64,000 nucleotides of DNA, taken from NCBI RefSeq assembly GCF_051903065.1, contig NZ_CP178439.1; one strand, given 5' to 3'. Numbering within the stretch: the first letter of the stretch is position 1; each line of letters starts with the position of its first letter. Source of the DNA: Escherichia coli (GTDB lineage: Bacteria > Pseudomonadota > Gammaproteobacteria > Enterobacterales > Enterobacteriaceae). The position numbers were made by a program. Positions 54,001-57,000 of this stretch are shown here, piece by piece.

Positions 54001-57000
54001 AAAGCCCTGAGGTTGCTGAAGACGGACTCCATGAAATCAGCATGAGCATACGAGTCTACAGGACGTGTCTTGTTATCTTTCATCTTGTTCTCCTCAATCA
54101 TTATTAAAACCAGCGGATTTAGTTTCTGGCGCTCCATCTGCTGACCGGCTTTCCCAGAGAGCAGCGATGTGTCGGGTTCTTTTTCTCATTTTATCGTTTT
54201 CATCGGGCCCATCCGGGCGTATAAGAGACCGATTTGGCATGTTTAGGAAACGTACTGGCGTAATTAAAAGCTGAGGTTGGATTTGGAATAAAAGGATGCT
54301 TTTCCCGTTTGTCGGGTCTTTCGCCACCGCTGCACGATGATTCTGTCAGGCATTCTGCGCCCTCCCAGGCTGCACATCTGGAAACAAGCGTTGGGATGTT
54401 CCCTTCCCCTGCTCACCGTAGAAAGATCGGCAAGTCCCGACGGTCGTTCCGTACGAGCCGGGTCCAAATAATGAATAAATAAAACGCCGCTTCAATTGTA
54501 TTGACAATAGAAGTCAGGAGGATCATAGTGTCATTCATGGTGCGGCTTTCGCACCACCGCCCCGGCGGTACCGGGCAGAACTGGAGTACCTCATGAAACT
54601 TTCCCGTCAGACGACTTCTGATACTTCTGTTGATGGCCGTTCACGCGCATATGCCTGGGGCCGTGTCCATTATTTCATTATCGAACATGCACCAATGGCT
54701 GAGCTGGTCGCTATTGACGAGCTGCTGGAAAAAGCTGGCTGGAGCAATGACGGCTGTCCGAACTATGAGAAAGATGACGAGTTTGGTAATGCTGGTTACA
54801 GCTGTGGTTACTGGATCGATATTGACAGCGTGGGAAGCTTCAAGGCTGACTACAAACGTCTTAAGGGGGAGATTAGTGCGCATATCGCCTCAAAGGCGGC
54901 AGAGGTGGAGATCCGCGTACTGGACTCGATGTCCGACAAAGAATGTAAAGATGTTGCCTCGGTGGCATCTACTGTTCGCCGTGACTTACGTACGCAGTCC
55001 GAATCGCTTCATTCACTGCGTACAATCGTAACGGTTGATCATTACAATCCCTATGTGACCACCAGCCGCCCGCTGAGCATTTCCGCCTGGACACTTATCC
55101 ACGACTGTCTGAAAACAGGCACCATCAATGACGTCTGTTCACGGTTGAGTTCATTAATCCTGCACTCTGAAGCCGCGATTGCCCGTTGTAAGGGAAGCTC
55201 CGACTACTCTTCGGAACACGCTCAGCTATCGTTTTTTGCTGGTAACGACTATGTCACCAGACGCACCCTTGTTGATGCAGCTCACGAAGAGGCTCTGCGA
55301 ATGAACCGCCGCTTTGATGAACGCATTGCAATGAACGCGGATTCTGATGCCAGAAGGCTCCAGTGCGAATTCAACCTTAGCAACCATGTCGTACAGCGTA
55401 GGACCGTTGAATCTGCTCATATCCAGGCACTCAATGAAGACGTCACCCGTTCACAGGCGGAACCACGCTGCCCTGGAAAGCTTCTTCTGAATATGACCAG
55501 TCATGAGGAAGTGCGGGACTCACTGAGCGCCTGTTAGTCCAGCGACACCCCCTGCGGCTCTACTACCGGGCCGCAGTCTGCTCCTGCCCAGATGGTGCCA
55601 GTGGTGTAATGAATTTGTTTAATAAGGCTAAGTATGATGAATAAAGAACAACTAATCGACAAACTGGAACGCGTGGTATGTGGTCAGTACTCCTACGAAA
55701 TGCAGGAGCTTGCGTATTCGGCCCTCTGCTGCATTAAAGGCACCCCGGACGACTGCGCTAAGTTCCCTGTTACGCGTCCGCTGCCTGACACCTTAGTGGA
55801 CGTATGGGACGAAATCGGGCAATACCTTGGCACAGGCAAAGCCATTGAAACTCGCAGTTGCGGCGTTTCGCTTCTGCTTCATGGACACTGCTACGATTCA
55901 AATCATGTGCTTTACTGGCGCAATGCTGGCGCACTTCCAGCAGCTTGCGATATGCCACTGGCTGGTGGGTCTCGCAAACTGTTCACCTGCTCAGCCTGTG
56001 GAGTGGACGGTCTGGATGAACCACCTGAAACCAGTTGCCACTGCTGCACAGAGGGGGCCCACTGGGTTGAGAGCAGGCTCTTCACCTCCGGGCAGGCAGA
56101 CCCTGAAGAATTTAGACCCGTGGCGGTCGTGAAAGAGTGTGCAGGCTCAACGCCGGATGATCGGCTCATCTGGAGTGTGATTGAACAGCTCAACGGCGAA
56201 CTGGCGGAAGGCGATAAACTATTTAAGCGACGCTGACAGATCACGGCAGCATTTATAACAGACGAACTCCAGAATAATTTAAAGCAACCATGAACATGAA
56301 AAAGCCCAAAGCTGCATTACAGAATGCCATGAAAGAAGATGTGCCAGCTGTGACACAGATTCAGATGCGATCTACGGTTTCCAGAAAGGTTCGCTATGTA
56401 AAACAGGCAAATCGAGAGGGTCTGAAATTATCTGAGTGGATGTCGCGGCATCTCGACGCTGTCTGTGATACCGCAGATGAGATTCATAAAGGCAAACGCT
56501 CAACTCCGGTTGCGCCTGGGAAGATTCCCCCAGAGGTATACCAGGTGATATACGATCAGTGCGGCGGGTTCGTGGAGTGTGATGCTAATGCCCAGGTTAT
56601 CTGGGAAGCCTGCCGTAATGCCATTCTTAACGGAGACAAAGGGTAAACGGCAGGTATCGCCTGTCATTTTACCCTTGTGAGGACAATACTGATGAACCAT
56701 GAGAGCCGAACTGTATACCTGAACACGGCCATTGAGGCCCTGCTGAAAGCTGAGGCGGCTCTGAACGATCTGGCATTAGCCTATGAGCTTAAACCTGATG
56801 AAAAGGCAAGCGCATGCCATCCCAGAACCGGCACACTTTCCACTGCGTCCCAGGTAAAAAAACTCCGCCGTGTCCTTGAGAAGCAGAAGGTATGAAGGGC
56901 TGCATCAGCCAGGCCCGGATATAAATACATGCTCTGCCAGGTGAGTACCACTGCCCGGTAGCCGAATGATAAGTTTTGATTTCACGGTTGCAATTTCTCC

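What the first reader, a model, noticed from the sequence alone, without database searches (positions are those of the whole stretch)
54593..56895. Higher-GC four-gene block including a Cys-rich protein, upstream of hok
Four co-oriented plus-strand ORFs in DNA of visibly higher GC than the surrounding backbone, one with several Cys pairs (possible metal-binding), none recognisable. The composition shift suggests separate acquisition.
Basis: seen in the sequence. Interest (0 to 1): 0.3.

Follow-up and report, generated by a model that had tools for sequence, protein, structure and literature searches.

The report
Repressor-controlled accessory operon of IncHI2 plasmids
The four genes are a conserved operon of the IncHI2 resistance-plasmid backbone, built from protein modules shared with early genes of phages, apparently under its own repressor, and still without a known function; it is not a recently acquired island.

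Summary
The four plus-strand ORFs are real genes: they are annotated identically in public records and are under purifying selection. The window is IncHI2 (R478-type) plasmid backbone, and the block is at least 95% identical in about 1,000 plasmids. The GC rise is weak (51.6% against 47.2% for the window). It already starts in the neighbouring ParB-like gene and is not an outlier. hok lies on the opposite strand, convergent with the block.

The genes are partly recognisable:
- ORF1 has an N-terminal DUF5417 domain, which is the T-even phage early protein Frd.1.
- ORF2, the Cys-rich protein, is a mosaic of an SH3-like barrel shared with P22-type EaD proteins and a CxxC-x12-CxC knuckle shared with prophage DUF551 proteins. 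Only 4 of its 13 Cys are conserved.
- ORF3 has a NikA-like ribbon-helix-helix domain.
- ORF4 matches a PHROG family of unknown function.

A near-consensus sigma-70 promoter, with a palindrome over its -35 box, precedes ORF1. Relatives carry two such promoter/leader cassettes and two RHH paralogues. Block content varies among IncHI plasmids, and ORF2 is missing from both relatives examined.

Best reading: a self-repressed accessory or establishment operon assembled from phage-like early genes. Its biochemical function is unknown, and an anti-defence or host-modulating role is only inferred. Interest is modest.

The parts
54491..54512 (+). Operator-like palindrome TTCAATTGT-ATTG-ACAATAGAA (8 of 9 arm positions complementary) that overlaps the -35 hexamer
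   Evidence: It is unique in the window; no match occurred in 100 shuffles. Relatives carry perfect versions in two variants with compensatory arm changes.
54501..54529 (+). Sigma-70-type promoter: TTGACA, 17-nt spacer, CATAGT (10 of 12 consensus positions), 64 nt upstream of the ORF1 ATG
   Evidence: Found by the consensus scan. The region is conserved at 81% identity in L002 although the flanks are diverged. The cassette is 97-100% identical in 985 IncHI2 records. Promoter activity was not tested.
54539..54575 (+). 5' leader with two short stem-loops: GGTGCG/CGCACC at 54539-54555 and CCCGG/CCGGG at 54561-54575, followed by a GGAG Shine-Dalgarno at 54583-54586
   Evidence: Read directly from the sequence. 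The second stem is invariant in all 6 copies. The first is kept with one compensatory change. In L002 and L009 the leader recurs upstream of three genes of the block.
54593..55537 (+). ORF1, 314 aa. N-terminal DUF5417 (T-even Frd.1-like) domain at about residues 1-92, a helical middle part, and a C-terminal part with two 'AHxxAL' repeats.
   Evidence: - Pfam PF17438 scores 24.7 bits against a 23.9 cut-off; phrog_1254 E 7e-8.
- tblastn finds 727 phage records, mostly T-even, at the gene annotated frd.1.
- Homologues have variable repeat numbers.
55634..56236 (+). ORF2, 200 aa, Cys-rich mosaic protein. Two N-terminal helices, module A (SH3-like barrel, about residues 41-100), module B (CxxC-x12-CxC knuckle, about 109-155) and a C-terminal helix.
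   Evidence: - Module B is shared with prophage proteins, many carrying DUF551.
- Module A is shared with P22-type 'EaD' proteins and occurs as free-standing phage proteins of about 70 aa.
- C119, C122, C135 and C137 are invariant.
- In the AF2 model the barrel has pLDDT above 90 and the knuckle about 80.
56290..56646 (+). ORF3, 118 aa (116 aa from the annotated start at 56296). N-terminal NikA-like ribbon-helix-helix domain at about residues 22-59 plus a conserved C-terminal extension. Candidate repressor of the operon.
   Evidence: - hhalign of the ORF3 family against a NikA-like protein gives 94.3% probability over 43 columns.
- An 82-aa paralogue hits Pfam NikA-like (E 2e-4) and RHH_10 (E 7e-4), both below the cut-offs.
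- Weak matches to the AcrIF25 N-terminal domain and the LmbU C-terminus cover the same segment.
- Homologues occur only in IncHI-type plasmids.
56677..56895 (+). ORF4, 72 aa (67 aa from the annotated ATG at 56692), a small protein of unknown function that always follows ORF3
   Evidence: phrog_19934 E 9e-11. It is conserved next to the ORF3 homologue in L002 and L009, at 62-67% amino-acid identity with dN/dS about 0.1. There is no Pfam, NCBIfam, PADLOC or PDB match and no tblastn hit in the phage records.

Best explanation
The block is one transcription unit of the conserved IncHI2 plasmid backbone.

Promoter. A near-consensus sigma-70 promoter at 54501-54529 drives ORF1 to ORF4. Its -35 box lies inside a 22-bp palindrome.

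Repressor. The third gene encodes a NikA-like ribbon-helix-helix protein. Its most likely role (inferred) is to bind that palindrome as a dimer and shut the operon off. Expression would then be high only when repressor is absent, for example just after the plasmid has become double-stranded in a new host.

Cargo proteins. All are drawn from the pool of small 'portable' modules that phages express early:
- ORF1 is a T-even Frd.1/DUF5417 domain fused to helical repeats.
- ORF2 is an SH3-like barrel plus a four-cysteine zinc knuckle, of the kind found in P22 EaD and lambdoid exo-xis/DUF551 proteins.
- ORF4 is a small PHROG-family protein.

Likely role. They most likely act by binding host or plasmid macromolecules, modulating host physiology or host defences during establishment, and not as enzymes.

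Shown: gene reality, conservation, the module homologies, the RHH fold assignment, and the promoter/operator architecture and its duplication in relatives.
Inferred: that ORF3 is the repressor, the timing of expression, zinc binding, and any establishment or anti-defence role.
For: Backbone membership and synteny.

Coding constraint.

Promoter and operator:
- The promoter and a unique palindrome over the -35 box.
- In L002 and L009 the promoter/leader cassette occurs twice. Both palindromes are perfect but have different arms, with compensatory changes at two positions.
- Those plasmids also carry two RHH paralogues, whereas the window has one cassette and one RHH gene.

RHH assignment.

Phage early-gene relatives:
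- T-even frd.1, sitting between frd and gene 32.
- P22-type EaD, between anti-RecBCD and xis.
- Prophage proteins sharing the knuckle, many of them carrying DUF551: with literature context.
- A free-standing module A next to a phage HTH regulator.

Plasmid neighbourhood:
- DUF5417 genes sit beside hok in an unrelated Rep3 plasmid.
- In an IncN plasmid one lies between a MucR-family regulator gene and the stbABC genes that adjoin the transfer genes.
- The block is flanked by a ParB-like gene and hok. Both families rank among the most prevalent ones enriched in leading regions (PMC11541004 supplementary table).

No enzyme-like domain was found in any of the four proteins.
Against: - There is no experimental or homology link to any characterised function. 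None of the four proteins matches a known anti-restriction, anti-CRISPR, SOS-inhibitor, SSB or defence family.
- The AcrIF25 similarity is confined to the RHH-like N-terminal segment, at E 0.09-0.26.
- Binding of ORF3 to the palindrome is untested, and another plasmid regulator could be responsible.
- The one-cassette/one-RHH against two-cassette/two-RHH correlation rests on only three plasmid types.
- The block points the opposite way to almost all neighbouring small genes. If those neighbours have the leading-region orientation, the block could not be transcribed from the incoming single strand.
- The nick site and direction of transfer of IncHI2 could not be established with these tools, so 'establishment' is context-based only.
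- The ORF2 model was made with a composite alignment (see the full report), and the ORF1 model is only moderately confident.
Confidence: 0.45

Rival explanations
1. ORF3 and ORF4 form a type II toxin-antitoxin-like pair: an RHH antitoxin that also represses the promoter, followed by a small toxin. ORF1 and ORF2 would be passenger genes of the same operon.
For: - ORF3 has an N-terminal RHH domain plus a conserved C-terminal extension, the usual antitoxin layout.
- ORF3 and ORF4 are the only pair kept together and adjacent in every variant of the block.
- The order antitoxin-then-toxin and a palindromic operator at the promoter fit TA autoregulation.
- The neighbourhood is rich in addiction modules: hok here, and relBE beside hok in L009.
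Against: - ORF4 matches no toxin family in Pfam, NCBIfam or PADLOC.
- The pair sits at the distal end of a four-gene operon, not directly behind the promoter.
- The genes are separated by about 30-45 nt and do not overlap.
- Relatives have a second, free-standing 82-aa RHH paralogue with no small partner gene directly after it; the DUF5417 gene follows it.
Confidence: 0.12
2. One reading: the block is a compositionally foreign island acquired separately and recently by this plasmid.
For: - The block is a few GC points above its neighbours, and ORF2 is the most GC-rich gene locally at 54.6%.
- ORF2 is absent from the syntenic block of both IncHI relatives examined.
- The block's orientation is opposite to the surrounding genes.
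- All module relatives are in phages or prophages.
Against: - The block is present at >=95% identity in about 1,000 IncHI2 plasmids from many genera.
- ORF1, ORF3, ORF4, the promoter and the flanking ParB-like and hok genes are syntenic in relatives diverged to about 70% identity, so the locus predates the IncHI2 lineage.
- GC and GC3 are within about 1.3 and 0.8 SD of neighbouring genes, and the elevated stretch includes the ParB-like gene.
- No repeats, integrase or IS elements bound the block.
Confidence: 0.08
3. The NikA-like protein and the palindrome belong to DNA processing, not transcription control. They would form a secondary oriT-like or partition-related site served by an accessory DNA-binding protein.
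For: The closest profile match of ORF3 is to NikA-like proteins, a family of relaxosome accessory proteins. The block lies about 7 kb downstream of the last plus-strand gene that follows the relaxase and coupling-protein genes, and next to a ParB-like gene.
Against: - The palindrome coincides exactly with the -35 box of a good promoter, positioned 64 nt ahead of ORF1 with a Shine-Dalgarno.
- In relatives the cassette is duplicated inside the operon ahead of genes.
- No relaxase gene is adjacent.
- RHH folds are common transcriptional repressors (established knowledge).
Confidence: 0.04

Closest known systems
[quoted passage not shown]
   Same: - Both are sets of small plasmid genes preceded by repeated conserved upstream promoter elements that a plasmid-encoded repressor binds (PMC6289460).
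- An IncN plasmid carries a DUF5417 gene between a MucR-family regulator gene and stbABC, next to the transfer genes.
- Relatives of the present block have a duplicated promoter/leader cassette.
   Different: - The upstream element here has a different sequence.
- The candidate regulator is an RHH protein, not a MucR-family one.
- No ardA or ardB homologue is present.
- Whether this region leads during IncHI2 transfer is unknown.
Anti-CRISPR operons with an autorepressor (acr-aca)
   Same: Both have a strong promoter with a palindromic operator, small cargo genes of unknown fold first, and a small DNA-binding repressor gene further downstream in the same operon. Both occur on plasmids and phages. 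The layout of acr-aca operons is stated from my own knowledge.
   Different: - No cargo protein matches a known Acr.
- The only Acr similarity (AcrIF25, E 0.09-0.26) covers the RHH-like N-terminal segment, not the Cas7-binding C-terminal domain.
- Repression by ORF3 is untested.
Lambdoid exo-xis and P22 'ea' early-left accessory genes (Ea22, EaD, DUF551 proteins)
   Same: ORF2 shares two separable modules with these proteins. Both sets are mosaics of portable domains with variable order, are expressed early, and have no known biochemistry (PMC10834534).
   Different: - ORF2 lacks the DUF551 domain itself and the Ead/Ea22 coiled coil.
- It is plasmid-borne.
- Its particular module combination has only one distant full-length relative among 1.84 billion representative proteins.
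T-even phage Frd.1 (Pfam DUF5417)
   Same: The N-terminal roughly 90 residues of ORF1 are homologous, including the MKLxR start and the GW..D.CP.Y ... G.WI ... FKADYK motifs.
   Different: The phage protein is the roughly 80-aa domain alone. ORF1 adds about 220 residues of helices and repeats. The function of Frd.1 is unknown, and no paper was found for DUF5417 or frd.1.

Membership tests
Pfam DUF5417 / T-even Frd.1 family (ORF1) | Match to profile PF17438 at or above its gathering score | tested here: met
   24.7 bits against a 23.9 cut-off, but only profile positions 54-89 are matched. Full-length homologues of ORF1 score 45-57 bits over positions 1-90. tblastn aligns residues 1-94 to T-even frd.1 genes at 37-40% identity.
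Ribbon-helix-helix DNA-binding proteins, NikA-like/RHH_10 (ORF3) | Sequence-profile match to an RHH family over the strand-helix-helix core | tested here: inconclusive
   ORF3 itself has no Pfam hit. Its 82-aa paralogue (E 1e-14 to ORF3) hits NikA-like at 21.9 bits and RHH_10 at 20.3 bits, both below the 27-bit cut-offs. hhalign of the ORF3 family against a NikA-like protein gives 94.3% probability. Taken together this favours membership but does not reach the curated threshold.
Ribbon-helix-helix DNA-binding proteins, NikA-like/RHH_10 (ORF3) | Sequence-specific binding of a repeat or palindrome as a dimer | not testable with these tools
   A suitable palindrome exists at 54491-54512, but binding needs an EMSA or a reporter assay.
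Zinc ribbon / zinc knuckle (ORF2 module B) | Four conserved metal ligands in two pairs (CxxC ... CxC) | tested here: met
   C119, C122, C135 and C137 are invariant in 37 rows, whereas C138 varies; H136 and H143 also vary in a few rows (alignment read by eye). The model places them on a beta-hairpin segment with pLDDT about 80.
Zinc ribbon / zinc knuckle (ORF2 module B) | Bound zinc, or structural similarity to solved zinc ribbons | tested here: inconclusive
Plasmid leading-region anti-defence island (Samuel et al. 2024) | Position close to oriT on the side that enters the recipient first | not testable with these tools
   The transfer genes, including the relaxase, lie at about 37-47 kb, so oriT is probably near 36.5-37.2 kb. 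The nick site and direction of transfer of IncHI2 were not obtainable.
Plasmid leading-region anti-defence island (Samuel et al. 2024) | Genes share the orientation of the rest of the region, which permits transcription from the transferred strand | tested here: not met
   The block is on the plus strand, whereas the neighbouring small genes from 47.6 kb to beyond 64 kb are on the minus strand. Which strand is transferred is unknown, but the block is the odd one out.
Plasmid leading-region anti-defence island (Samuel et al. 2024) | Contains recognisable anti-defence, SOS-inhibitor, SSB or methyltransferase genes | tested here: not met
   None of the four proteins has such a hit. The flanking ParB-like and Hok genes belong to families listed as enriched in leading regions.
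Type II toxin-antitoxin system (ORF3-ORF4) | Downstream partner belongs to a known toxin family | tested here: not met
   ORF4 has no match in Pfam, NCBIfam or PADLOC, and only chance-level PDB matches (E 1-2). Its only match is phrog_19934, of unknown function.
Lambdoid DUF551 / Ead-Ea22 proteins (ORF2) | Presence of the DUF551 (PF04448) or Ead_Ea22 domain | tested here: not met
   ORF2 has no Pfam hit at E <= 0.1. It shares only the knuckle module, which lies in the N-terminal half of the DUF551-carrying proteins compared.
Recently acquired genomic island | Compositional outlier, patchy presence within the lineage, mobility signatures at the borders | tested here: not met
   15.6% of equally sized windows are at least as GC-rich. 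The block is present in about 1,000 IncHI2 plasmids and syntenic in relatives. There are no bounding repeats.

The most novel reading that the evidence does not exclude
DUF5417/Frd.1, the EaD-type barrel and the zinc-knuckle module are a shared toolkit. T-even phages, temperate phages and large conjugative plasmids all deploy it immediately after entering a cell, to neutralise a host defence or to reprogramme a host process. The IncHI2 block would then be a zygotically induced, RHH-switched anti-defence or host-takeover operon, and it would give the first functional handle on T4 frd.1 and the lambdoid/P22 'ea' genes.
Probability: 0.25. Interest if true: 0.6.

Novelty: new member of a known kind. 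Interest (0 to 1): 0.3.

Why it matters
IncHI2 plasmids are major carriers of mcr-1, mcr-9, ESBL and carbapenemase genes, yet most of their backbone is unannotated. This operon is present, almost unchanged, in about 1,000 sequenced plasmids, so it is presumably useful to the plasmid.

It also links three pools of 'dark matter' genes: T-even frd.1, the lambdoid/P22 early-left accessory genes, and small plasmid genes next to hok and ParB-like genes. A phenotype found for the plasmid operon would therefore transfer to widely studied phages. The predicted promoter/operator plus RHH pair is directly testable and could serve as a compact regulatory switch.

As it stands, the result is a better annotation and not a new mechanism.

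Tried and rejected
- **Sequence searches against solved structures.** Single sequences and family profiles gave nothing usable for any of the four proteins. The AcrIF25 hit was followed up and judged to reflect only a shared RHH-like N-terminal segment.
- **PADLOC.** The only hit was a spurious ZorB match for ORF1 at E 0.009.
- **Rfam.** No RNA family lies in or near the block.
- **Viral contig scan with the ORF1 family.** No confirmed relative was found. tblastn against phage records then did find them.
- **Alignment of ORF2 homologues.** MAFFT superimposed the two unrelated modules. X-padding also failed. The workaround was a composite alignment.
- **Fold searches.** These gave only generic small-barrel hits for ORF2, and helical-hairpin or ferredoxin-like hits for ORF1. 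I draw no functional inference from them.
- **Literature.** Searches for DUF5417, frd.1, an IncHI2 leading region and IncHI2 anti-defence found nothing specific. The R27 Tra1/oriT paper is not held, so the direction of transfer stays open.
- **Remnants of the extra L002 genes.** None was found in the 1.1-kb spacer upstream of the block.
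Full report
**What the window is.** A 3-kb query around the finding matches 1016 plasmid records. 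Of these, 988 cover at least 80% of the query, and all but one of the 1016 are at >=95% identity. They come from Escherichia, Salmonella, Enterobacter, Klebsiella and other genera, and nearly all are conjugative. A 100% identical record is typed IncHI2A, MOBH, MPF_F. The block lies downstream of the transfer genes, with the coupling-protein gene ending at 43696. It sits inside a long run of small, unnamed genes that are almost all on the minus strand.

**Checking the observation.**
- The four plus-strand ORFs exist as described. The public annotation agrees, apart from shorter starts for ORF3 (56296) and ORF4 (56692).
- Against two diverged relatives, the ORF1 N-terminus, ORF3 and ORF4 give dN/dS of 0.10-0.29 in the four of six comparisons where dS could be estimated, so they are genuine coding genes.
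- The GC claim is weak. The block is 51.6% GC against 47.2% for the window, and 15.6% of equally long windows are as high or higher. The rise starts around 52000 and includes the minus-strand ParB-like gene.
- Against 24 annotated neighbouring genes, the block is about 1.3 SD higher in GC and about 0.8 SD higher in GC3.
- hok is on the other strand and convergent with the block.

**ORF1.** Pfam places a DUF5417 domain in the N-terminus, just above threshold, and PHROGs agrees.
- Only five non-identical homologues turned up among 5.8 billion clustered proteins. All share the N-terminal domain, and they differ in the number of C-terminal 'AHxEALxxN/D' helical repeats.
- tblastn with the first 111 residues finds 727 phage records, mostly T-even phages. 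There the match is an 80-aa gene between frd and gene 32, annotated 'similar to RB69 frd.1'.
- The domain also heads a 460-aa protein in a 94-kb circular Cronobacter phage.
- On plasmids, DUF5417 genes sit beside hok in an unrelated Rep3 plasmid. In an IncN plasmid one lies between a MucR-family regulator gene and stbABC, next to the transfer genes. From my own knowledge (Delver and Belogurov 1997), that side of oriT is the IncN leading region.

**ORF2, the Cys-rich protein.** It has 13 Cys and is a mosaic.
- Word-indexed and exhaustive searches show that residues 109-155 (SRKLFTCSxCGxxGLDEPxExxCHCxxxGAHWVE) recur, mostly in the N-terminal half, in many prophage proteins of E. coli and Enterobacter, many of which carry DUF551.
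- Residues 41-100 recur in P22-type 'EaD' proteins and in Klebsiella MOBH megaplasmids. They also occur as free-standing phage proteins of about 70 aa.
- Only one distant full-length relative exists, at 42% identity.
- In the alignment, C119, C122, C135 and C137 are invariant and the other nine Cys are not. This supports a single Cys4 zinc knuckle and not a generally metal-rich protein.

**Method note for the ORF2 model.** MAFFT kept superimposing the two modules. For structure prediction I therefore built a composite alignment. Rows 3-37 each join a real module-A fragment from one protein to a real module-B fragment from another. Column content is genuine, but the row pairing is artificial, so the relative placement of the two modules in the model carries no information.

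**ORF3 and ORF4.** ORF3 homologues occur only in IncHI-type plasmids.
- Its residues 22-59 align weakly with the N-terminal segment of AcrIF25 and with the C-terminus of LmbU regulators.
- An 82-aa paralogue in the relatives (E 1e-14 to ORF3) hits Pfam NikA-like and RHH_10 just below threshold.
- A profile of the ORF3 family aligns with a NikA-like protein at 94.3% probability.
- I therefore assign a ribbon-helix-helix DNA-binding domain to ORF3.
- The AcrIF25 similarity does not extend to its Cas7-binding C-terminal domain, so it says nothing about anti-CRISPR activity.
- ORF4 matches only phrog_19934. It always follows ORF3.

**Regulatory anatomy.** The promoter scan found only the number of sites expected by chance (4 against 4.0 expected), but one site is notable. 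It reads TTGACA-17-CATAGT at 54501-54529, 64 nt upstream of ORF1.
- The -35 box lies inside the palindrome TTCAATTGT-ATTG-ACAATAGAA, which is unique in the window.
- Two short stem-loops and a GGAG follow it.
- This 90-nt stretch is one of the few non-coding pieces conserved with the 70%-identical relative L002.
- In L002 and L009 the cassette occurs twice, at the first gene of the block and at an internal gene. Both palindromes are perfect but differ in sequence: TTCTATTGT/ACAATAGAA and TTGTTTTGT/ACAAAACAA. Both arms change together at two positions.
- The leader alone recurs a third time directly upstream of the DUF5417 gene.
- Those plasmids have two RHH paralogues, whereas the window has one cassette and one RHH gene. 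This fits 'each RHH protein represses its own promoter', but the sample is only three plasmid types.
- The cassette is confined to IncHI2 (985 records) and 42 relatives.

**Comparative picture.** In L002 and L009 the order is ParB-like gene (minus strand), small minus-strand ORF, plus-strand block, hok (minus strand), which is the same as here. Their blocks hold 9 to 11 genes and lack ORF2. In L009 the DUF5417 domain is a separate 110-aa protein. The locus is therefore old and conserved, while its cargo is exchangeable.

**Interpretation.** The best-supported reading is a self-repressed accessory operon of the plasmid backbone that carries phage-type early accessory proteins.
- The flanking ParB-like and Hok genes belong to families that rank high among those enriched in plasmid leading regions (PMC11541004).
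- The IncN CUP/ArdK regulon offers an architectural precedent (PMC6289460).
- The lambdoid exo-xis literature describes the same kind of portable domains with unknown biochemistry (PMC10834534).
- An establishment, anti-defence or host-modulating role is therefore plausible but unproven.
- The block's orientation, opposite to its neighbours, and its ordinary double-strand promoter argue that it would fire only after complementary-strand synthesis.

**Rivals.** They are a TA-like ORF3-ORF4 pair, a recently acquired island, and an oriT- or partition-related site. Each is weighed in its own section, and none is favoured.

**Verdict.** This is a solid re-annotation of an ordinary but uncharacterised plasmid operon. 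Interest is modest at 0.3, and the finding is a new member of a known kind.

Noticed in passing
window 57546-58987 (IS150) and hok at 57314-57529, minus strand: An IS150 copy sits 17 nt upstream of the long (mok-like) ORF of the hok locus. It separates hok from about 110 nt of upstream sequence that is contiguous in the relative L002. Only some IncHI2 plasmids carry this insertion. IS150/ISKpn8-type elements lie at the equivalent position beside hok/DUF5431 genes in unrelated Klebsiella and E. coli plasmids, which suggests a preferred insertion site in hok leaders.
   Followed up: partly
L002 5269-5356, 6917-7004, 7968-7990; L009 3266-3353, 4914-5001, 5968-5990: Within the plus-strand block of IncHI relatives there is a repeated promoter/leader cassette: a palindromic operator over the -35 box plus two leader stem-loops. 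There are two full copies with different palindrome arms and a third, leader-only copy ahead of the DUF5417 gene.
   Followed up: yes
window 53492-54490: About 1 kb upstream of the block's promoter has almost no annotated coding sequence. It contains one small minus-strand ORF (53907-54083, 58 aa) that is conserved at 55% amino-acid identity in L002. Otherwise there is no nucleotide similarity to relatives, which carry extra genes downstream of the promoter instead.
   Followed up: partly
window 52307-53491, minus strand: A 394-aa ParB-like protein (HTH_ParB, phrog_1033) is divergent from the block and conserved in the IncHI relatives. ParB-family regulators are among the most prevalent leading-region families in PMC11541004.
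   Followed up: partly
window 9399-9486, minus strand: The only Rfam hit in the window is AgrB (RF02891), an antisense RNA, at 68.8 bits against a 40-bit gathering score.
   Followed up: no
window about 14000-22000: A stretch of 57-60% GC is far more deviant than the finding itself. It is probably an accessory or resistance insert.
   Followed up: no
window 60094-60375, minus strand (L001 17795-18076): PLSDB's resistance prediction labels this 93-aa hypothetical gene 'Brucella suis mprF, 100% identity'. This looks like an annotation artefact.
   Followed up: no
L003 (ENA metagenome contig, Rep3-type plasmid): A DUF5417 gene lies directly beside a hok-family gene. The same contig carries ParDE-like genes, a NikA-like gene and an Aca2-family gene. 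It is another small plasmid whose accessory region may repay study.
   Followed up: no
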